A stretch of DNA of 20,000 nt from Peribolospora baueri. Its lineage: Eukaryota. The DNA is taken from assembly GCA_029717555.1 (NCBI GenBank), contig JAMDHS010000100.1, positions 51,024 to 71,023 on the forward strand, in the 5' to 3' direction. Made by a program: the position numbers and the translations under genes. Below are positions 4,067 to 20,000 of this stretch, one piece after another. The notes beneath the pieces were generated by a model. It was not told where the DNA came from. It ran no database searches and saw only the letters and a program-made list of their open reading frames with translations. Positions within the stretch are counted from its first letter, which is position 1. Every line of letters starts with the position of its first letter.

Positions 4067-5763
4067 ATGGACGGCAACGACAAGACATCGGCGCCCCAGG
4101 CCATACCCATCACCGTCTTCACGTAAGGTTCCCTTCTCCTCTCTTGCCCTCGGGGAGCCGCAGTTGGAGGCTCACCTCCGCGACACCGCCGTACGTCGAC
4201 AACAGAGGATTCGTCGGCGCTGGCAAGACGACCCTCATCCTCAATCTCCTTCCTCAGTTGCCGTCTGACTATAGAGTGAACTGGTCTAGCTTTCAGACGT
4301 GGTGGCGTACATCAATTAACTTCTGGAATTGTCTGCGTTTCCCCTCACAGGTCTGCATTCTCAAGAATGAGCTTGGCGACGTTGAAATCGACAGCAAGCT
4401 CGCTCAACAGTCGTCAGTGGCCGGTGTCAGCGAGATTCTCAATGGCTGTCAGTACGCGTGTCTCTCGGCTTGGACAGCACTTTGTCTGTTGCCCTCCCTC
4501 ACATTTTGCATCATTCAATGAAGGTCTTTGCTGCACCCTAACTGGTCAGATGCGAGCTGGGATAGTAGGTATTACTTTTCTCCTTGATGGTTCCATGACG
4601 AGTTAATGAGCTGATTTCTCCGTGTGAAGATGGAAATCAAGGGGAAATATGCGCCAGATCGTATCCTTGTGGAAGCTTCCGGCTCGGCCTTTCCAGCGAC
4701 TTTGGCGCTGCAGATTAAGGAGCTGGAAAGGGACACGGCAGGCGCATTGCGGTTAGATGGAGTCATCACTGTCATTGACTGTGAGGTGAGACGTTTCCGC
4801 TAATCTCAGGAATAGGTTTTTTCTTCAAGCACATTTGACCGACATCTGTGCCAATCCAGAATTTTCGAGGTTACGAGGACACTTCGCCTACCGCCAAGAT
4901 GCAAGCGCGGTATACTGACCTCCTGCTTCTGAACAAGCACGAGAATGTGAGTGGATCGCGCTCGTCTCGGTCGCGGCCGTCCGGAATACTGATAGCAGAC
5001 GTCATCGCTTGGAAGCTTTCCGAACGCGCTCTAGATGTGGTGCTAGATCACGTCTTCGAACTCAACGAAGACACACCGAAACTGAAGACGAAGGCGGGCT
5101 CTGTCGAGCCGTCCGTCGTTTTTGGGCTCGACAGTGCGCTTCTTGACAAACTGAAAGGCGCTAGCAGCGAGGAAAGAGCCAAATTCGGTGTCGATGCTGG
5201 CACGCACAGCGATGAGATCGAGACAGTCAGCGTGTGGAAAGGAGGCTCAGCACCCGGACGCTCTAACCACCACCATGACCATGGATCGCTGGTTGATTGC
5301 TCGCAAGACGGAAAATGTGTAGACGGAGACCAACAAGGCGGCGAGCGTGGGGAATCCCTCTCATTCTCACCCGAACAGCTCATTGCGGCTTTGGACGCGC
5401 TCTCGACAGAGAGCGTATGGAGAGTGAAGGGCTTTGTCCGGTTATCTTCACCTCCGGCCATTGATGGCTATAACGCATCGTCTGCAACACCACTACCCTC
5501 AAATGTTGCTCTCTACAGTGAGTAAACGTGCCCCGTGGTGTCCCGCCTGTTATCCTTTTCCTGGCTCATCCCACTGACGGACTTATCTTTCCTCAGTCTG
5601 CAATTGGGCGTTCGGCCGACACAGCTTCACGCCTGTCGGTCAAGGTGTCCAGGCGGACATCCAGGACATCGGCCTGCGTCTGACGATGATGGGAGCGCGG
5701 GGAGAGCTCAAGTCCAAGGCGCGCAAATTCGCTCTGGCGCTGGGCGCCAATGTCAACTTCTAG
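4067..5763 (+). CDS. COG0523 / CobW-HypB-UreG (G3E) family P-loop GTPase, putative Zn metallochaperone (Zng1/CobW-like, 8 exons)
   Basis: Exons 4067-4122, 4206-4275, 4351-4447, 4524-4564, 4630-4785, 4860-4946, 5016-5517, 5597-5763. Motifs: IPITVFTGFVGAGKTT (Walker A), KNELGD, NGCLCC (CxCC metal site, formed across a splice), ILVEASG (Walker B/ExxG), LLLNKHE, His cluster HHHDH, and VWRVKGFV (CobW_C-like). Confidence 0.93.
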
Positions 5764-7335
5764 ATCCAAATCATTCCCGCTGTGGACGGGTACCTTAGAT
5801 AGAGAAATAGAAATAAAGGCGGAACTGTCGGGGCGGCCGTGCTCCTCTCGACCGCCTTCTTTGGACAATTACCATGGCTTCCCGATTGTGCGGGAGCATG
5901 CTCCTATCCTGTATGTGCGCATGGAGCCGGGAGAGATAATGAACTGAGCGCTGCACGTCTCACAAGTCTCCTTCCGGCTGTTGGTCCTTTCCGCTTCTTC
6001 CTCCGTGGTCTTTGCCGTTTCCCTCGCCGCTTCTCCAACTTCGACGTCGTCAACGCCACCTGGGAAAGCTCTGGACGATGGCGGTGTGGTTTTGGACTCA
6101 CCTGCTCAGGACGACAAGCGTGCAGCCAACGCACCTTTAATTTCGTCGTCATCAGAGCGATTTTCAATAGCGAAGGGAGGTCCTCAGGAGCCGGCATCCC
6201 GCTGGTCTCCAACGGGAGAACGTAGGGAGCCTGTCAATCACCGCCTCAGCATCTCCTGATACCCTCTCTCCGCTATCTCCTTTCCAGCGTCGTCATAAGC
6301 ATCGACCAACGCTACCAACGAGAGGGCTATGGGATCGGCGCACTTTGCCAACGGAGACGATGTCTATCGTGCTATTAAACATCGGGTCATGACGGGTATT
6401 GCTTTCTCACGTTTCCTAGAAGACAGGAGCCGTGTCTTCTTCTCCCCTCCTTTCTTCTTCCCGCCACACATCTCCCCTTCCTCCTGCTCTTGTCTCATCT
6501 CATGCCCTACCACTCATTCACCTTCATCTTTCCATGTCTTTGTCTTCTTCCACAGAAAAACAAATTGTATGGAATTAACAGGAAGACCGGCATGATGCCA
6601 TTCAGCACCACGTAGCGGTGCTGCGCACGCACGGGCAGCTTGACGCATTTTCAAGGCACCCAGTGAGTCTTGTGCAGCTTCATTTAGACCGGTACCCAAC
6701 CATTCATTCTGCTCACCGACGACCTTCTTTTTACCCTTCCAGGACTGTATGAGCTACAGAGATGACACCCGGGGGAGGAAGTGTATCGTCTTGAGGGAAA
6801 GAGGAAGACAGACAGTAAGTGCAGCCCCTTCTCCCCACTACGTGGTTACCCGTTATCTTCCGATATGGACAACACATTCATGACGTTGTCCACTTGCAAC
6901 TTTGTCTTACAGACTGGCATTGGTCCTATTCAAGACGGTACTTGTACCTTCCTTCCAATTACTTAAAGGGTTAACTAAGCATCGAGTCACGGTAAAATTG
7001 GAAGATGGGCGGGAACCGCGTTCAGTCGTGAGCGGCTTGAATTGGACAACAGGCCAGGGGGCCACCTGGTTTCTGGCTAAACTGGACCATGCTGTGCTTG
7101 ATCTGTAACCCCAGTCATGTGTGCTGAACCGTTGTTTAGTCCAGACGTCCTGCTCCTACGATTGTGACCTCAAGCGAAACTTGTACACGTGCGCGGAGGA
7201 AGGGTCGTCCCGGCAACGAATGCATCCTGTCACCGATTTTACAGAAAGTCTATTATGACCTTGTCGGGGTTGCAAAGGCCATCAAACGGGTGGTTATACT
7301 CGTATCTAACAGTCAACTCGACCCATTCCCCCATC

Positions 7336-10211
7336 CTATTCGTCCGCGAGTACGGCGAACGCGTTCGAGCCTCCCTGGGCGTCCAGCGCGACCTTGCCGC
7401 TGGTCCCGCCGCTTATCTTCTGGTTCTTCCTTTGTCGCTTCTTTTCCGACTTGCTCTCTCCCACGAAGATGGCCGATTCCAGATCCTCCTCCACCGCGCT
7501 GAGCACTTGCGCGTACTCCTCCTCGTCCACACCCACGTCGTACTGGCCAAACGGAGGCCGAGAGGCGCTACCCTGGCGTACGGCCGCTTCAAGAATAGAG
7601 TGAAAGATGCTGCCCTCATAGAAGACGTGAGAGGCAGGTAAGGGCGCAGGAGTGAGGAGGAGGCTTTCGGCGAGCTGGTGGGACGCATCAAGGACAAACT
7701 GAAAGGTCGTGGAGAGGTGGATCGCCCTTGACGTCGGCCCGGAGACGTTCGGAGATTCGGACGGAGAGAACATTGCCTGTCCGCGGGTTGCCTGTTTGCG
7801 CCAACGACACGCCACCAGGCCCGCCCTGACGGCAGCTCTCACTTCCTCGCGCCTCCACAAACGTGAACGCTTGACGCCCGCATTGATCATCTCTCCGCGA
7901 ATGATGTGTCGTAGAGAGGCGACCAGTGGAAGCAGAAAGGGTGAGACCGTCTCGAGGGCGACACGGGAGGATAAGGCGTGAAGGTAAATGGCGATCCGCG
8001 TAGACTCTGGCAGCGACGGCGCAGGCAAGCGTGTCGGTTGCATGAGAGCGAGGAGTTCTTCAGGAAGTTTTCCATATCCAGCCTCGGCAGCGCTGGCTGA
8101 TAGCATGTGCTCGAGAGGCACGATTAGCACCGGCTCAGACCGGAGTCGTTCGCCTTTTCTCACATACTCCACGACCATAGCGTCTGGCTTGTCCTCCTTC
8201 TCCTCCGCCTCGTCCTCGTGCACCGAAGATTCCGGCGTCGTGATGTCGGTAAGAGCGTCCAGGTCTTCGTCCACAGACGTCTGGCCATTCGGATCCTCTC
8301 CGTCGGAATCCTGCTCCCTGCAAGCATCTGGGCCGCGGGCCCAGCTCAGACCCCAGGCCGAAAAGACGACAGCGTACCACCACCGCCGAATATCCCTTGC
8401 CAGGGTGACGTTGTTGCTCTGTCTGTCGGGATCTTCGGGGAACACTTTGGGTAAGAAGATCCGATGAGCCATGACCTCGAGAAGGGTGGGATTCAGGCGT
8501 CCGCTCTTGTATGCTTCGAGGTAGAGTGCGAGAGCCTGGCGACGAGCGCAGAGCAATTCGGCCGGCGCCAAGACGATGACGCCGTTGCTCGACGACGAAC
8601 TGCTATTGATCTCGGTCTCCCAGGCAGCAAGGTCACCCTCGACCCCAGAGTCATTATGCGCTCCATCCGTCGCCATGCCCTCCACCCCTCCTTCTCCGAT
8701 CCAGAACTCGTCAAGTTCCTCGGTGCCCGAGAACGCCATGACGCGACTGTACGTGCAGACGCTATCGATGATATCCTGCACCACCTTGTCACGCTCTCCT
8801 GACACGATAAAGTCATGGTCACTCCCACCTCGCCCGTCCCCTCTTCGTCGTCCAGCAGAACGAGCGTTCGCAAGAAGAGCGTCCACAGAAAACTCGACCA
8901 TCTGCCGGACAGGGTCGAGTGCAGGCATGCCGGAGGCGGCGCTCCCCGCAACCGAATCACCGCGTGCAAACTTGCGCCACTCGTTTTGGATCGCGCGCGC
9001 GGCTTCATAGATCCTCTCACTGCTGGACATACCCTGGAAGTAGAGGTGGCCAAAGTCGAAATAGTCGTTGCCGACCAACGCCGCCAGCAGCGGAAGCAGG
9101 GATGCAGGGATGGAAAGATGGACGGCGAGGGCGTGGGCAGAGTATGCAGCGAGTCGGACACCAGACAGGCGAACCTCTGAGGAGAGCCTCGGCGGCGGCG
9201 TGCGCGAAGGGCGTGAAGAGAGTTGTGGGTCACGGCGTGGGTCCCATCGAGTCTTGCCCTTCTTTACCGTCTGAAACCCATCATCGTCGGCAGACGCCTC
9301 CGTGCCACCGTCCACGCCTGTCTCTTCGATCTCCCAGGCCAGCTCGTCAAGAGGGACGTACCCTTTTCCGTTCCTCCCTCTGGCGCAGAGAACGAAATAA
9401 TCTGAATCTTGGCTCACAGCGTACCCTCCTAAAGCTTCAGCAAGCGCTGCAACGCTCGAGTCGGCTTCGGTGGCGGCGAAGCGCACTTCCACGTTCGCAG
9501 ATGAATTTCGGGAGCAGGCGGCGGAACCGCAGTGATCCTCCACGGGCCCGTACAAAGAGTCGATGGGAGCATAGCAAGGTCGAAAATCGTCAAGCGCGGC
9601 CAGCGTCGCTTGATAAATCATGGGAGCGAGGAGGCCGATGTCGCGCTGAAACTTGCGCGAGGAGCGAAGTGAAGGCGAAGCGCGCATGAATGATGAGTTA
9701 TTGCCGACGAGGCGAGAGAGACGGGAGATGACGGTGGCATGCTTGAGAGGCGGAGTTGGACCGTCAAAGATAAAGATGGGGCGCAGACCGACAGCGCTGC
9801 AAGCATCGGTGGGTTAGAAGGAGAGAACTGACGTGAGCGGGTCGATGAAGCGGCCACGTATGTACTCACATCCATGAGGCCACGATGTCTTTCACGAGCT
9901 CCTCATATCGAGCGTAATCGCCTCCTTTGTGCCATTCACTGCAGAAGCCCATATAGACCTTCCGGTTCAAAGAAAGCCAAGACAGGCGATTATCAGCGAG
10001 GCCCGACAGACATTGGTCTCCTGTCAAAGGTCTATATGCCCACCCAAAAAATGAACGCCCATCCGTCGATCACCAGCGCCGTCCGTTGTCGCCCATCGCC
10101 GCCGGTCGCTCCCGTCACGCCGTCTTCGTTTGTCCAGAATGGAAGCAAGATATCAGTGGCGACGGTGCGCCTGATTCTGGTGGCGAAACCGCCCAGGCCC
10201 TTGACGCCCAT
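7336..10211 (-). CDS. PIN/XPG-like nuclease-fold protein of the Asteroid/FAM120-like family (3 exons, ~905 aa)
   Basis: Exons 10211-10044, 9958-9870, 9796-7336 are frame-consistent. N-terminal MGVKGL...LVIDG, then GGDY, IFIFDG, EADSSVA, QDSDYF and LLAALVGNDY are the acidic XPG-N/XPG-I/H3TH-like motifs. The C-terminus is basic (KKRQRK). Confidence 0.88.
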
Positions 10212-11681: not shown

Positions 11682-11731
11682 TGGCGATTAGCAGCCTTGT
11701 TATTGGCGATTAGCCCAGCTTGTTAATGGCG
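11682..11731. promoter_or_regulatory. Imperfect tandem repeat (22-23 bp, ~2.2 copies) in the divergent SPO7/RCY1 intergenic region
   Basis: TGGCGATTAGCAGCCTTGTTAT / TGGCGATTAGCCCAGCTTGTTAA / TGGCG lies within the ~300 bp between the two head-to-head start codons. The regulatory role is inferred. Confidence 0.45.
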
Positions 11732-11780
11732 CCGAGCCGCTGTCCGCACCCGCCGATCACGCCAAATACGCGGCGGCTAT

Positions 11781-11874
11781 GACGGACGACGGGCGACGGC
11801 GACAACAACAACAAGGACGACGACGACGGCGACGACGACGACCACGGCCACGACTACGACCACGACCGGCCGAC
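11781..11874 (+). repeat. Degenerate (GAC/CGA)n and (CAA)n trinucleotide microsatellite
   Basis: gacggacgacgggcgacggcgacaacaacaacaaggacgacgacgacggcgacgacgacgaccacggccacgactacgaccacgac. Confidence 0.85.
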
Positions 11875-11928
11875 AGATGCCTTCCCTCTTCCCGCCTTCC
11901 TAGTCAGGGCCCCTTCTTCGACGCCAGC

Positions 11929-14900
11929 ATGGAGCGCTGGTCCACTCTCGTGCCCACCAAGCTCCATGGCTCGAGTCTGCACAAACCAACCGCCGTCTCC
12001 TCGGTCGACAATTCGTACGAAGCCATCGGCCAACTGCCTCTCGCCGTCGTCCTCCGCATCCTCCAGTACACGTCCATACCCGACCTCCCCAACGTAGCCC
12101 GATGTTGCAGGCGCTTGGCCGCCTTTGTTAAAGATGAACGTTTGTGGGCATTCAAGCTTGCCGTACTCGACTGGGCCGAGGACGAGACAGACCGAGGTGC
12201 TGCAGGGCGGGGACAGGCGCAGACGGCAGGCCCTCCAGGGCCGGCTGAACGCTTCTCTCTGTCGTCTCCGAAGAGAGCGATCAAGCCTCCATTACTGGCG
12301 GCAGCGACGGACGATGACTTTGGCGTCTTTACCGCTGGCCGCACATCTGGCGCGAGCGGTGTTGAAAGGGAGGAGGAGGACGATTTTGGGGATTTCACTG
12401 GCAGTGCCGACCGTCCCCCATCGTCGACAGCGGCGAATACGGGAAACTTGCTCTCTTTTGACGACGTCGATGGCCTCGACTCTCTCGCTCCCATCACTTC
12501 AGCGACCGTCGCTGCGCCAGTCTCCCATCCCTCTCGTCCGCCAACCAATGGTTCGGCCGCACCCGGCGGCCTCCCCCGCTCATCACTCTACGTCTTCCGC
12601 TCCCACCATGCTGCCCTCCTTCCCACACTGTTGTCCCTCCGAACATCCCCCCCCTCTGCCCTTCTCTCGCATCCTAGCGCACCCAAAGAGTCGACTCTGA
12701 TAGATCAAGCCGCTTTCCTCAGCCGACTCGCGCGGTTCATTCACCCTCTATTGGAGCCGACCCGTGATATCAGAGGCGTAAATGGTCTCGAGGCTAGGCT
12801 GGCCGAGGGCATGGACTACTTCGAGGGAATGTGCCTCGCCACATTCGAAAGCGCCGACGAGCGCTTCTCCGCATCCTCGCAACAATCCGCCTCTTCGACG
12901 ACGCACGGGAGCGAGGAGACGATGAGGACGGCCGCATATGCGCTTTGGGAGCTGGGAAGGCCCTCGACGGCGGTGTGTAATGAAGAAGAGGAGATTGTCA
13001 GACGAATGCAGAGGATGGAAGGCGCTGTTGGCGTGTGGTTGGAGCGGAGGGAGATTTGGTACGAGAAAGGGTGGGACCCTCTAGCAAATGTCGTGTGAGT
13101 GCCATTCCATGCCTTGGTGCAGCGGCTCGTCTTGTGGCCCTCGTCGAGACTTGCACTGCTGATCGTATAGCTCATATTCTTGTCTTTGCACGCTCGTTCT
13201 CTAGGAAGGTTTCTGGAGCGGCCCCACAGCAAGGAGCTACCCTCGAAACGCTCGACTTTGCACCAATGGATCGTTTCATGTCAGCGGTGTTGTCCGCCGT
13301 TTCTGCGCAGGGCGGCATTATCAACCGGGTCTTTCCGACCCAAGCGGATGTTTTGGTCACGTTCGGGGAGCGGATAGCAAACGAAGTGGTACGTATCATA
13401 CCGGACACCACTTCGTGCATGTCCTCTTACGCTGCCTCACTTCGTCTCATGTCCATGCAGATCGGCGACTACGTATCGAGTTTGCTCTCCCACACGCGTT
13501 CTCTTTCCACTCGACTATACCTGCAATGTGTGGCGGCTGTCTTCGTCCAGTCCCTCCGTCTTGCCGACGCATTGCTATCAGTCGAGCCCAAGACCGAGCG
13601 CTTGACAAAGACCAAGGCCGAGGACATCGTGTACCGAATGTTCGAGCCGTACATGGACGAGTATCTGGGAGAGGAGAGGGAGTTGGTGAAGGAGCGATGC
13701 GAGGATGTGGTTACGCGCTGGGACGAGGAGGTGAGTGGTTCTCTTTGCCTCGCTTAGTCGGCCACCTGACCCTCGTCACAGCGTCTCATCGAAGCATCCA
13801 TGACCGTTATCATTATGCGTCCAGTTTGAGCATTCAACAGCTCCGACCGCTGCGCACTTCCTCACATCAGAGAACCCCACCGCGGTGAAGCGCAACGTCC
13901 TCCACTCCTTTCGCGATGCCCTTCTCCTACCCGTTACCGTGGTCCCCCGCACAGTTACCTATGCAGTCAAGTCGACGGCCGACACGATCAGCTCTCTCAA
14001 CCCGGTGCGTTGGCCGACGTCGTTGGCCGCGGAAGCCGTGCCGCCTACGTATGAGCGGGGTGGAGGAGAGGGCCGGGCCCTTGGGCGCGGGAGCATACTG
14101 GATGAGCTCGAGGAGGTCAACGTGACCGGCAAGCCGTCTCAGCCTTCCTCTGAGCGTGACAGTGCTCCGTCAGCTTCGTCCTCTCGGCCGTCAACCCCTT
14201 CGGTAGCATCTTTGAGCGTCCAACCCGCCAAAAGGTTCTCCACGCTCTCCGCTACTACGACGGCCACGACGCGAGCCAGTGCCAAGTCTACCTTCGAAGG
14301 ATTACAGCTATTTCTCAGCCTTGACGTCGCATTGCAGCTCATTCAGATCGACCGGGATTGCATAAAACGGATTGAGACGTTCCAGGGATATCCGGCCGCA
14401 TATGGCCACCGGGTGAGGGAGGAGATCGAGGAAGTTTTCATTGCCTTTCTACAAGTTCTTGGCGACAAACACATCGGGCCGGGCTTCACAAAGCGAGTAG
14501 CTTTCGTCGGTTTACGGTTGCGAGTTCTCGATTAGTCCATCTGACCTTGAGATCAAAATCTAACCAACAGAGCGACGCAAAAGATCGCCGCCTATGTTCC
14601 CGCCGAGCACGATCCCGTTACACCACGGCCGTCACAGGCCGAAATTGAGCACGCCGAAAGTGGCGACACAAAGCGACACGAGACCGTCGTGGCTCCCCTT
14701 GTGCACTTCTTTGAGCTCGTGCACATCGGAGACACTATCCAACAGATGGTACAGGTTTATTTCGATGAGGAAATGGTGAGTGCTCCGTTCCTCATTGCGG
14801 GCTTGCCTTTTCAGCTAACTGGGGTTTTTCATTAGGCCAAGCACATCGACCGCACCGACTTTCTCAACTCTGCGGTCCGAGAGAAGAAGCGCTTTGAGTC

Positions 14901-15738
14901 GATGCTAGATGAGGCCGTAGCCAAAGGTCTCAACGCCGGCGTCGACCTCCTCATGGGTCAGGCGGAGCACATTATCTCTACGAGGCAAGATCCGAGGGAT
15001 TTCTATCCAGAACAAGGCCAAAGCTTGGACCTGCGTCCGACGCGCGCGTGTAGAGACACAGTGGAGTGCCTCAAAGCCCACTGTCGTATGCTCGTCGGAA
15101 GCACGGACCGACAAGTACTAGAGGTGTTCTATCAGGAGGTCGGCATACGCTTGCACGGGTGAGGCAGGCGACTCTCTCTGATCTTGTATTTGCTCGTATT
15201 TGCTCTGGCGATTAAACTTAGGTTACAATTCTTCGCCTCATAGCATCATCTGCAAACACCTCAAACGCCAAATAATTTCCCTCGACGGCGGTTTTCAGGT
15301 CATCTCCGACCTCAACTACTACTATGCCTTTGTCGCCTCCTTGCGACAATCCAACATCACTGCCTACTTCGAGGCACTCAAAAAACTCGGAAACGTGTTC
15401 ATCATTGATTCGGCCAAAGACCTCGGACAGGTGGTACGGGATGCAAGCATGTATGGTGGTATGTTCAGTCCAGAAGAGGTGTATGAGTTTCTACGAGTGA
15501 GTCGACCAGGTCTTCCGTCGTGGTTTCGCGTGCGCGACTGATGCGACTCCGACTCTTGGAACAACTTGGCGGGCAGGCCCGTTGCGACTTTAAGGCTATC
15601 GAGAAGGCGGTCGACAAAGAAATGTGAGTGTGACGAAGGGAACGAGGTCAGGGTCCCCAAAGGTGTGCGTCAGTCGGCTCAAAGCTTCGACCATGCAGGT
15701 ACGGCTTCAAAGCCTCGGAGGACTGCATCGTATGCTAG
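11929..15738 (+). CDS. RCY1: Recyclin-1: F-box plus Sec10-like domain protein with C-terminal CaaX box (9 exons)
   Basis: Exons 11929-13094, 13205-13388, 13461-13730, 13825-14492, 14571-14775, 14836-15158, 15244-15496, 15577-15623, 15699-15738. F-box LPLAVVLRILQYTSIPDLPNVARCCRRL; Sec10-like motifs FEPYMDEYL, FFELVHIGDTIQQM, EKKRFESMLDEAVAKGLNAG and GGFQVISDLNYY; ends DCIVC-stop (CaaX). Confidence 0.92.
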
Positions 15739-17324: not shown

Positions 17325-17596
17325 GGGCTCGCATTCTCCTCTCAGCTGTAGTTAAATCCCTCATTCGTGAATTCCTTCCCCGATCCTTATCCCCATCCTC
17401 GAATCCTTTCCCTCTCTACCCAACCCCGATCCTGATCTCCTTTAGCTTCCCTATCTCATTCTCATCTTGACTCTTACCTCGTTCCCATCTGGACCTCGTT
17501 CCCATGAGGACCGACCCGATCCAACCTGCTCAAAAGCCTTCGCATTTCTCTCCGAGCACACTTCCAGGGCCTCAAATACAAGGTTGGCACCCTGAT

Positions 17597-17647
17597 GGCT
17601 GCCTGACGGGCCCTCGGGCGAAACAGCAAAAGCTTTCTGTCGCAGCT
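17597..17647 (+). ncRNA. Type I hammerhead ribozyme (A9G core variant)
   Basis: Stem I 5' GGCUGC (17597-17602); core CUGACGG (17603-17609); stem II GCC-CUCG-GGC (17610-17619); GAAA (17620-17623); stem III CAG-CAAAAGCUUU-CUG; UC with predicted cleavage after C17641 (GUC triplet); stem I 3' GCAGCU (17642-17647). Confidence 0.8.
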
Positions 17648-17693
17648 TGCTCTTTCTTCTCGTGGGGCTTCGTTTTTTGTCCACAGCAACTTC

Positions 17694-17781
17694 ATGGCCA
17701 CCTCCAGTTGACGACAAAAATCTTAACCCTCGATAAAAGCCGACCTCCGGCTCTCTCCCACCCCTTCGGCGCCCAATGACC

Positions 17782-17817
<36 letters not shown>

Positions 17818-18272
17818 CCGTCCAACGCCATAATAAGCGTCTCGCAGTCGACCCCCTAGGGGAGGAAGACCTGGTGAACAGCCTAGCTGTATCCCACTTA
17901 GAGACACCCCCCTCTTTCCTTGAAATCTACAAGGAGCACGTTGCTGCCTACACCAGCAACGTGTCGAGGGTCCTTCGCGCACAGGCTGGCATCGCCGAGC
18001 TGGAAACAGCGAAAGCCACCGGGGTTTATCCTCCAGCGATCGCCAACGCAGTCAAACTGCCTCCTATCCAAGTTTCAGGCTTTGCTCGACCCCATATCAG
18101 GGAAGACATTGCCTCTGAAAGCTCTGATATGGAGATAGCGGCCCACGCATGCCGAACTACTTTTCTGGATAAACTCATTTGGGTCAGGCGAAAGGAGGTC
18201 GAGCTCCTCACCTGTCTACAAACGGAGGAGAAAGTCGTACAGCAGCCTCCCCTGGATAGATCTCTTGTTTGA
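17694..18272 (+). pseudogene. Disrupted ORF downstream of the hammerhead; probable N-terminal part of a Penelope-like retroelement ORF
   Basis: ATG 17694 is in frame with ORF 17874-18272. Stops occur at 17709 (TGA) and 17721 (TAA); the frame is then open through the poly(C) (poly-Pro) into ELETAKATGVYPPAIANAVKLPPIQVS...FLDKLIWVRRKEVELL. No RT motifs are visible. The family call is inferred from the hammerhead context and recalled similarity. Confidence 0.5.
17783..17815 (+). repeat. Poly(C) homopolymer, 33 nt (poly-G on the minus strand)
   Basis: Direct count of consecutive C residues. Confidence 0.95.
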
Positions 18273-18750
18273 CGCGTTGAAGAAGTCACCGAGGCTACGC
18301 GTCTGTCAGGGAGGACTTCCCTACTCAGGTCGGGTCACGAGCGAGGGACGGAGGGCGGAATGGAGGTCCACCGGAAGTCGACGCAAAGCAAGGAGCAGGC
18401 AAGTCGGGGACAAGGACGAGCACAGGAACGAGGATGGGGCGGAGGCTGGGACGGAGGTACTGATGCTGGACGGGGAACTCTGGAGGAAACCTGAGCGGTG
18501 ACAAAAGTATTCTTAGCTTGGGGAGGAAAGATGCGGACGACACACACACACACATGCGAAGAGCTCGATCACCCACCGTTGAAAGCCAACATTTTAAGGA
18601 GGCACTTTGAATGCATATAAAGTACATAGATTGGTAGAGGAATAATAGAAGACCATGAAAGCGAAATCCGAAGCAAAAGCAAGAGAGAAAAAGCAGAGTT
18701 ATAAGCGTTTGAAGTTTGGGCGGATAAATTTTGTTTTTGTAATGGCTGCG

Positions 18751-19008
18751 TGTAACACGCGGATCGTTTCGGCACTGTGATGAACGTCCGCCGATTGACG
18801 TCGTGTACGAAGTAGGTCGACAAGGGCAAGGTTGCAAGGTCAAGGAAGATCAAGGCAACAAGGTATCAAGGTGAACAAGGCTAGGAACATGGACAAAGGG
18901 ACAAGGACGGGGAGCTAGAGCTAGGTACCAGAACACGGGAGCTAGGAACTATGGAGCACGCGGGTCTTGGACGGGCTTCAGGAGTGTGCGACGACGCGAC
19001 GCGTTACA
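18751..19008 (-). mobile_element. LTR-like element, 258 bp, termini TGTAAC...GTTACA
   Basis: Terminal inverted repeat TGTAACACG vs TGTAACGCG (8/9 match), TG...CA ends, and internal short repeats (CAAGG, GAGCTAG). A purine tract GAGGAGGG lies just upstream on the minus strand. The flanks (CTGCG / GACGC) are not a target-site duplication. Confidence 0.6.
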
Positions 19009-19022
19009 GACGCGCACCCTCC

Positions 19023-20000
19023 TCAGGACCGGTTAGGGAGATGCCCAATACGCTGCACCGCTTGGTCGTAAATTTTTTGAGCCTCTTCGTCGGTGAGCAG
19101 TCGTGACGGCAGCGCCCATGTCAGCGCCATCGCAGCCTCCATCTCGGGGCACCTCGGCATTCTTTCCGCCAACATCCTGACCCAATCCGGCGGCCCGTCG
19201 CCCACAGTAGTGATCAGTTTACAGCGCTCCCACCAAGCAGGCAGGAACCCGCTAGTTTCCCAGTCCAGGATGCAAGAAATCGATTTGGACTCCTGGTCGA
19301 ACTGAATGTTGTACGGCCCGAGATCGCCGTGCGTCATGACGAAGCGCGTACGATCCTCCGGGTTCTTGTCCAGATGCCTAGCGTGCAGCTCCCTCACAAC
19401 CGCAGCAGTAACCGCATCGACGCCGGCATAGACAATCATCTGGTTCAGAAGTTGATCCGCCTGATTGTCGCCAGTGAAGCGAAGAAATCGGCCTTGTTTT
19501 GTGAGGTACCCCTCTTGAAGCGGGCTGTCGTCGGGACTGCAGATCTTTCCTGACGTCAACTGCCTCACTTCGCGCAGATGCTTCCATGTTTCGTCGACAA
19601 CGGCCCTCTTGCATCTCTCGTCCATGGATATCCACGGGTTTGGGTCGATAAGCTTGACGCCCTCCACTATTCCACTCGGATAAAGCTTGACGCCCTTGGC
19701 CTGCTTCATCAGAATGAAATGTCTCTTGGCCTTGTCGCTGTGCCATCTCAGAAGGGTGTCTGGCACGGGAACAGACGTCTTCGCCTTGATGTACTCGATG
19801 ATCCCTTGCTCGGCGGGTGCCACCGTCCTTGAGGACGACCTGGCCATGGATTGAAATTACACACCGCGACGATGTACGATGGACGCACTCGACGTGGCCC
19901 GCGAGCGGGTCGTACGCGTCGAGCTCGCGGATGAACGCTCGACTCTCGGCCGGGTCTTTTGGGAAGAGATCCAAGATGGACGGATCCGGGCCAGAGATGG
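19023..20000 (-). pseudogene. Intronless APH/choline-kinase-like phosphotransferase, frameshifted near 19812-19830; 5' end outside the window
   Basis: ORF 19847-19023 carries E..IEYIKAKTSVPVP, FILM, FVMTHGDLGPYNI (Brenner motif) and ILDWETSGFLPAWWE. The N-lobe strand RCVISIHGQVVLKDG is in a different frame, which stays open to the window edge. No room for an intron between the two frames. Confidence 0.8.

What the first reader, a model, noticed from the sequence alone, without database searches (positions are those of the whole stretch)
18751..20000. APH-family kinase ORF apparently carried inside an LTR retroelement
Seen, minus strand in order: intronless APH ORF, stop TGA (19025-19023), purine tract GAGGAGGG, 8 nt, then a 258-bp TGTAAC...GTTACA unit. 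The unit has no matching TSD on its two flanks and no TGG primer-binding site on either side. That is expected for a 3' LTR whose partner lies beyond the window. All five conserved genes here have introns, whereas this ORF has none in ~1 kb. Inference: a kinase gene captured or retroposed by an LTR element, i.e. a mobile phosphotransferase cargo.
Basis: partly seen in the sequence, partly recalled or inferred. Interest (0 to 1): 0.72.

Follow-up and report, generated by a model that had tools for sequence, protein, structure and literature searches.

The report
Telomere-zone fungal kinase beside LTR stub
A broken copy of a fungal small-molecule-type kinase gene sits against the tail end of a jumping gene, in a patchwork block copied to several places in the genome; it was most likely spread by ordinary DNA duplication, not carried as jumping-gene cargo.

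Summary
Observation largely confirmed; cargo reading only partly. Kinase and LTR are joined identically in 3 of 3 assembled near-identical loci (C1, C383, C21). But no partner LTR with the predicted TSD was found, three different upstream flanks show no 5' LTR-plus-PBS, and the closest paralogue (C96, dS 0.66, dN/dS 0.28) is also intronless and has no LTR at its 3' end. The window copy is frameshifted. All named homologues are fungal. APH-like genes cluster near telomeres here (6 of 24 loci within 5 kb). Best reading: subtelomere-type DNA duplication. Side result: a different APH-like gene lies inside a complete, TSD-flanked gypsy element (C13), so capture is not excluded.

The parts
17506..18303 (.). 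Fragment of a repeated Penelope-like retroelement end (includes the 181-codon frame 17727-18272)
   Evidence: 78-98% DNA matches on C12, C37, C95, C77 and others; on C12, C37 and C95 the matching DNA lies next to a Penelope-type RT frame (the RT label is my reading of its motifs, not a library hit); C37 and C95 carry telomere arrays
18304..18539 (-). 3' 236 nt of a second, high-copy gypsy LTR ('LTR-A', about 370-460 nt when whole), truncated and fused to block B
   Evidence: More than 20 matches at 83-98%; 5-bp TSDs round solo copies on C69, C110, C638; flanks gag-pol on C13; the same fusion point on C21 and C637
18540..18750 (.). Block B: (AC)n microsatellite plus an AT-rich unit that occurs as a tandem repeat elsewhere; outer flank of the 258-bp LTR
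   Evidence: 98-99% in C21, C383, C637; 82% and 73% tandem copies on C103 without any LTR
18751..19008 (-). 258-bp gypsy-family LTR ('LTR-U') in 3'-LTR orientation relative to the kinase; no TSD at this site
19009..19030 (-). PPT-like tract overlapping the kinase stop codon; the kinase's last codons differ from the C96 paralogue from about here
   Evidence: 13 matched letters with one 2-nt gap against the C373 tract; alignment of 3' ends
19023..19826 (-). C-terminal 267 codons of the APH-like kinase K1, with HGD-x4-N and DWE motifs
19827..20000 (-). N-terminal part of K1 with the VVLK lysine motif, in another frame because of an 8-nt deletion; start codon beyond the contig end

Best explanation
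K1 is a host gene of the fungal APH/choline-kinase-like family, natively without introns in this lineage and kept mostly near chromosome ends. The intact protein most likely uses ATP and Mg to phosphorylate a small-molecule hydroxyl, for example in detoxification (fold and motifs shown; substrate inferred). In one sub-lineage the gene's 3' end became fused to the stub (purine tract plus 3' LTR) of a decayed low-copy gypsy element. That kinase-LTR-repeat block was then copied as DNA, by ectopic recombination or break repair between chromosome ends and dispersed repeats and at least once through a circle-like intermediate (C21), to at least four copies. The window holds one of these, now frameshifted. 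Shown: copy structure, LTR identity, missing TSDs, ragged borders, purifying selection, telomere clustering. Inferred: the repair pathways, the order of events, and that the window's contig end is near a telomere.
For: Copies: C1, C383, C21, C359 differ pairwise at 11-18 of about 540 nt. Their borders differ: left LTR-A (C1, C21, C637) or a LINE-like piece (C383); upstream LTR-A then telomere at 965 nt (C383), LTR-A directly (C21), unique DNA (C316). No TSD round any copy; no partner LTR; none of the LTR-A ends inspected carries the TSD expected for the C1 or C637 sites. C21 reads LTR-U 88-258, kinase, LTR-A piece, B, LTR-U 1-65: one unit opened inside the LTR, 22 nt lost, no duplication of the flanks, like the circle-derived insertions in wine yeast (PMC3053389, passages). 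Paralogue C96: intact, intronless, 71-72% aa, dN/dS 0.28 (Fisher 3.5e-17), 1.5 kb from a telomere, with an LTR-U fragment upstream and in the other orientation and none at its 3' end. 6 of 24 APH loci over the Pfam cut-off lie within 5 kb of a telomere array against 0.09-0.13 expected for an assumed 17-25 ends. Homologues with names are fungal. Model pLDDT 82; best PDB matches APH(2'') enzymes, TM about 0.5, 12-16% identity.
Against: The kinase stop sits exactly in a PPT-like tract in the right orientation, and this junction is shared by 3 of 3 assembled loci, as expected of a captured gene. C21 does have LTR-U pieces on both sides and can be read as a two-LTR element trimmed at both ends. A different APH-like gene lies inside a complete gypsy element with a TSD (C13), so capture may occur in this genome. 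The window's upstream DNA is unassembled; C21, C637, C13 and C635 copies are not shown to be telomeric. Five of the 11 telomere ends scanned were fetched because of a kinase hit; among the 9 ends in the first 100 of 207 pattern matches, 3 have a kinase within 5 kb, and 3 of the 9 contigs are shorter than 5 kb.
Confidence: 0.62

Rival explanations
1. One reading: K1 was captured by a gypsy element of the LTR-U family through template switching, replacing pol up to the PPT, and moved as a non-autonomous element; the 5' half was later lost or is unassembled.
For: Correct orientation and PPT-like tract; one shared 3' junction in 3 of 3 loci; LTR-U pieces on both sides in C21; a second APH-like gene inside a TSD-flanked gypsy element on C13.
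Against: No partner LTR with the predicted TSD; no intact 5' LTR-U or TGG-type PBS in three upstream flanks; block B, which would have to be the leader, is a tandem repeat elsewhere; nearest paralogue already intronless; tract likeness is weak in two of three copies.
Confidence: 0.25
2. The C21, C1 and C637 copies come from a cDNA circle of a read-through RNA started in LTR-A and running through the kinase, LTR-U and B, closed by a faulty minus-strand transfer.
For: The LTR-A piece begins just downstream of the LTR's TATA box and the C21 unit is circularly permuted.
Against: The fusion lies 23 nt after the start of the TATA box, whereas the TSS in Cryptococcus lies 35-40 nt after it (bioRxiv 10.1101/2023.07.18.549460, passages), so the piece holds DNA upstream of the likely RNA start; no PBS follows LTR-A in C21; the fusion sits in a microsatellite with short similarity on both sides.
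Confidence: 0.06
3. The mosaic and the frameshift are partly assembly artefacts of a collapsed repeat.
For: C1 and C359 end at the same base; C620, C574, C316 are short repeat nodes; contigs of runs X1, X2 and X4 carry the 8 nt that the window lacks.
Against: Copies have their own sets of differences; contigs of X1 and X2 begin exactly at the C21 break point 18838 and bridge LTR to kinase (these runs may be the source of the assembly); contigs drop minority variants.
Confidence: 0.07

Closest known systems
LTR-mediated retrocopies and Bs1-type cargo elements (Tan et al. 2016, PMC5131818, passages read)
   Same: A host coding sequence directly abutting LTR-retrotransposon sequence, with one junction shared by all copies.
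   Different: There the retrocopy is flanked by the same element on both sides; here only a 3' stub is shown, no TSD, no intron-bearing parent.
Circle-mediated amplification of region B in wine yeast (Galeote et al. 2011, PMC3053389, passages read)
   Same: Circularly permuted copy inserted with little or no change at the junction and no TSD (C21).
   Different: Only one permuted copy here, 2.0 kb rather than 17 kb, opened inside an LTR; no replication origin tested.
Fungal 'phosphotransferase enzyme family' / APH-like kinases (Pfam PF01636) of Penicillium, Metarhizium, Hypsizygus, Aspergillus, Stereum
   Same: Pfam match, motifs and fold; K1 falls among them in a quick tree.
   Different: Only 24-33% identical to the best hits, on a long branch; no close relative outside this genome and the related organism B.
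Bacterial APH(2'') aminoglycoside kinases
   Same: Best structural matches (E 1e-10, TM about 0.5).
   Different: 12-16% identity, no sequence-level PDB match; nothing shows aminoglycoside activity or a bacterial origin.
'Complex' fungal LTR elements with extra domains from nested insertions (Muszewska et al. 2011, PMC3248453, passages read)
   Same: Fits the C13 element with kinase and CHAT pieces between LTR and gag.
   Different: The paper's main text does not mention APH or kinases; its supplements were not read.

Membership tests
LTR of a gypsy retrotransposon (258-bp unit) | TG..CA ends with short inverted repeat, sharp borders in different flanks | tested here: met
   C1, C383, C53, C373 full length; C96 left end
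LTR of a gypsy retrotransposon (258-bp unit) | TSD round a solo copy | tested here: met
   5-bp TSD at C53 (78% relative); 1 of 4 full-length copies
LTR of a gypsy retrotransposon (258-bp unit) | A family copy lies behind pol and a PPT | tested here: met
   C373, integrase match E 8e-18
LTR-captured gene / non-autonomous LTR element | Same-family LTR on both sides of the cargo | tested here: inconclusive
   Absent in C383 and C316; complementary fragments in C21; window upstream unassembled
LTR-captured gene / non-autonomous LTR element | TSD round the whole element | tested here: not met
LTR-captured gene / non-autonomous LTR element | tRNA primer-binding site after the 5' LTR | tested here: not met
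   No TGG-type site after LTR-U or LTR-A ends; self-priming could not be tested
LTR-captured gene / non-autonomous LTR element | PPT before the 3' LTR | tested here: inconclusive
   Present and like C373 in the window copy, weaker in C383 and C21; 8 nt from the LTR against 3 nt
LTR-captured gene / non-autonomous LTR element | Introns lost against a parent gene | tested here: not met
   Only paralogue found (C96) is a continuous frame too
LTR-captured gene / non-autonomous LTR element | Microsimilarity at the switch points | not testable with these tools
   No close internal sequence of the LTR-U sub-family is held for comparison
Fungal APH-like kinase (PF01636) | Pfam score over cut-off | tested here: met
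Fungal APH-like kinase (PF01636) | Lysine, HxD-x4-N and D motifs in one frame | tested here: not met
   Not met in the window copy or C21 (frameshifts); met in C96 and, with HSD for HGD, C383
Fungal APH-like kinase (PF01636) | APH/choline-kinase-like fold | tested here: met
   Model of the C96 protein
Aminoglycoside phosphotransferase (resistance enzyme) | Phosphorylates aminoglycosides | not testable with these tools
   Needs an enzyme assay
Circle-derived (eccDNA-type) insertion | Circular permutation, no TSD | tested here: met
   C21 only
Circle-derived (eccDNA-type) insertion | Several insertions opened at different points | tested here: inconclusive
   One permuted copy; C1 and C637 could be insertions through LTR-A but their far ends are unassembled

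The most novel reading that the evidence does not exclude
Gypsy chromoviruses of this fungus repeatedly pick up APH-like kinase genes and shuttle them between chromosome ends and interiors: lineage K1 on an LTR-U element (now in pieces or as a one-LTR circle) and the unrelated lineage K2 inside an LTR-A element that integrated with a TSD. That would make retroelements the engine of a telomere-zone kinase repertoire under purifying selection, a eukaryotic parallel to mobile phosphotransferase cargo in bacteria.
Probability: 0.18. Interest if true: 0.62.

Novelty: new member of a known kind. Interest (0 to 1): 0.3.

Why it matters
As most likely read, it is an ordinary but well-resolved case of a fast-turnover accessory gene family at fungal chromosome ends, with one clean circle-type insertion. 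If capture is real, it would link gypsy elements to the spread of an uncharacterised fungal kinase family, and the C13 element would be the place to test it. No paper on APH-like cargo in fungal LTR elements turned up in the listings of searches, or in the main text of two fungal TE surveys (supplements not read); the library lacks most subscription journals.

Tried and rejected
Partner LTR with TSD CTGCG: 41 matches at up to 1 mismatch against 44 in the control; the 2 exact matches have no LTR-U sequence; only 10 of 41 were fetched and 2 examined. Far ends for LTR-A at the C1 and C637 sites: not among the ends inspected; lists are lower bounds. Bacterial or viral origin: no support; named hits are fungal; no bacterial APH was put in the tree. 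Word-based homologue search with the C96 protein found nothing; PDB sequence search nothing. The careful tree did not finish; the quick tree (71 rows, hits under 200 aligned residues left out) has low support at deep forks and most rows are unnamed, so no donor is claimed. Strong-stop cDNA model for the LTR-A piece: position does not fit. The C96 341-bp TGTAAC..GTTACA stretch: only its first 136 nt are LTR-U, no TSD. Gene at the C21 insertion site: flanks stay in frame for 10 codons up to a splice-donor-like site, but no homologue was found, so it is not confirmed as a gene. Runs: no RNA holder listed. In organism B (X3, X4) contigs cover the kinase but none was laid on block B or LTR-U at 88% or more; a part without cover proves nothing. 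Contig depth over the kinase was about three times that of the flank in X1 and X2, but the tool says depth is no copy number. tRNA scan: 0 genes in 7 loci. Earlier-findings look-ups by sequence and by words: nothing. A Pfam scan of six side ORFs and one paper look-up did not run, so those labels stay unconfirmed.

Full report
Setting. The window is the last 20 kb of contig C1 of a 22.7-Mb, 668-contig genome with TTAGGG telomeres. Earlier scan notes call it a basidiomycete (e1-7835955; not tested here).

The observation. The frame is not an intact gene: 3 of 3 sister copies that cover the site have 8 nt that the window lacks after 19826, so the VVLK lysine lies in another frame, and the start codon is about 64 nt past the contig end. 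Contigs of runs X1, X2 and X4 also carry those 8 nt; contigs drop minority forms, so the deletion is either a true allele of one copy or an assembly error. Lack of introns says little: two host genes in the window have stop-free frames of 825 and 468 codons.

The unit is an LTR. It has 8 matches on 6 contigs and relatives on 5 more. The C53 relative is a solo LTR with a 5-bp TSD. The C373 relative follows gypsy integrase remnants and a purine tract 3 nt before the LTR. This fixes the family's sense as the window's minus strand, the same as the kinase. The window's tract resembles that of C373 (score reached by 29 of 3392 control 40-mers), the C383 and C21 variants much less (528 and 1730 of 3392). 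A purine run of 8 or more arises near 287 of 4850 random sites.

The copies. DNA and protein searches give near-identical kinase copies on C1, C383, C21, C359 and C620 and a paralogue on C96. C1, C383, C21 and C359 differ pairwise at 11-18 of about 540 nt. Kinase and LTR are joined at one point in 3 of 3 loci where the 3' end is assembled. Upstream the flanks differ: on C383 an LTR of another family and then the telomere, 965 nt from the start codon; on C316 unique DNA; on C21 the other LTR directly. None holds an intact 5' LTR-U with a primer site. A pattern search for the predicted partner gave chance numbers (41 against 44) and its 2 exact hits are not LTRs.

Left of the LTR lie block B (18540-18750), a tandem repeat elsewhere, then 236 nt of a second LTR, LTR-A, with more than 20 copies and clear TSDs on three solo copies, then a Penelope-like fragment. 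The LTR-A/B fusion recurs on C21 and C637, while C383 has a LINE-like piece there. The right end of the window is thus a mosaic of four repeat types and a kinase.

C21. This copy reads LTR-U 88-258, kinase, upstream DNA, LTR-A piece, B, LTR-U 1-65: one unit opened inside the LTR, 22 nt lost, no duplication of the flanks. Integrase does not make such ends (established knowledge). It matches circle-derived insertions described in wine yeast (PMC3053389, passages). It can also be read as a two-LTR element trimmed at both ends, which keeps the capture model alive. An RNA-circle model failed its test: the LTR-A fusion is 23 nt after the TATA start, upstream of a TSS expected at 35-40 nt by the Cryptococcus figure (bioRxiv 10.1101/2023.07.18.549460, passages).

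The kinase. The C96 paralogue is intact, intronless, 1.5 kb from a telomere, has no LTR at its 3' end, and gives dS 0.66, dN/dS 0.28 against C383. The intronless state and selection on the protein therefore most likely predate the LTR junction. The window's 3' part gives dN/dS 0.37 against C383 (Fisher 0.045), the C21 part 1.35 (0.77). Of the four full-length loci C96 is intact, C383 is open with HSD for HGD, C1 and C21 are frameshifted. The best of 298 library hits reach E 2e-15 at 24-33% identity; 4 of the top 10 clusters carry names, all fungal, as do the 6 hits with species names among 18 (5 species-named fungi and one unnamed kinase label) and the Atlas clusters. A quick tree places K1 and the second lineage K2 on separate long branches among these proteins. 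The model (pLDDT 82) matches APH(2'') enzymes best, at TM about 0.5 and 12-16% identity. I infer a small-molecule kinase; the substrate is not known and no resistance function is shown.

Genome context. Pfam APH gives 29 matches, 24 loci over the cut-off by my count. Six lie within 5 kb of a telomere array (C383, C96, C45, C284, two on C53) against 0.09-0.13 expected for an assumed 17-25 ends. Five of 11 ends scanned carry one, but these five were fetched for their kinase; among the 9 ends listed first by the pattern search, 3 do. That the window itself lies near a telomere is inferred from the block shared with C383 and from the Penelope-like piece, not shown.

Against my reading. On C13 a complete LTR-A gypsy element with a 5-bp TSD holds a frameshifted K2 kinase and a CHAT fragment between its 5' LTR and gag. 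Its LTRs differ at 16 of 325 sites, about as much as K2 copies differ from each other (91-95% identity), so K2 may have been inside when it integrated. It is a single case, its interior is scrambled, and the other K2 copies have no LTR-A beside them. An earlier scan note describes a dead RFX gene before a PPT and LTR in this genome (e1-7835670, not checked here).

Known kinds. LTR-made retrocopies are flanked by the element on both sides (PMC5131818, passages); this test is not met or open here. Fungal LTR elements with extra nested domains are known (PMC3248453, passages). Searches (listings only) and word searches of two surveys (supplements not read) showed no report of APH-like cargo.

Verdict. 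A real LTR stub fused to a real, here broken, fungal kinase, most likely spread by DNA-level duplication (0.62); LTR capture remains possible (0.25). New member of a known kind; interest 0.30.

Noticed in passing
G000:C13:36213-44776 (L054:1214-9777): Complete gypsy chromovirus with LTR-A at both ends (16 mismatches in 325 aligned nt) and a 5-bp TSD; between 5' LTR and gag lie a frameshifted APH-like gene (K2, unrelated lineage), a CHAT fragment and inverted pieces; pol is broken by several frameshifts. Best candidate in this genome for a kinase inside an LTR element.
   Followed up: partly
C76, C284, C241, C635, C209, C514, C656, C45: K2 family: copies 91-95% identical with ragged borders and no LTR-A beside them, one 78% copy 1.2 kb from a telomere; dN/dS 0.28.
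   Followed up: partly
L018:1729-2571 and 5105-6534 (C53); L073:4870-6090 (C61): Two more APH-like lineages near telomeres; the one at C53 5105 appears to have an intron, with remnants on C96, C241, C656, C21.
   Followed up: partly
window 18304-18539: High-copy LTR-A; several copies are 3' LTRs with only a short internal stub (C45, C98, C197, C661, C3), one followed by two telomere repeats (C197).
   Followed up: yes
Endonuclease-less elements of this kind attach to telomeres (PMC8557442, passages).
   Followed up: partly
L015:3961-4539 and 6564 onward (C21): The permuted kinase block interrupts an open frame that continues in frame after it; TPR remnants lie 1.2 kb to the left. No homologue found.
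   Followed up: partly
window 7336-9813 (-) and 11692-15541 (+): XPG/PIN-like frame of 825 codons without a stop; an F-box plus Sec10-domain gene (Rcy1-like, label recalled).
   Followed up: no
L017:721-4262 (C96); L016:2704-3252 (C383): LINE-like elements or fragments next to the kinase blocks; C96 has an inverted duplication of part of the RT.
   Followed up: no
L063 (C98) and L064 (C45): Two copies of an intronless NmrA-like reductase frame (label recalled) and TPR/CHAT-type frames beside LTR-A stubs.
   Followed up: no
L056:3989-7371 (C39): 1.7-kb tandem duplication at 96% that shares scrambled pieces with the DNA upstream of the C96 kinase.
   Followed up: no
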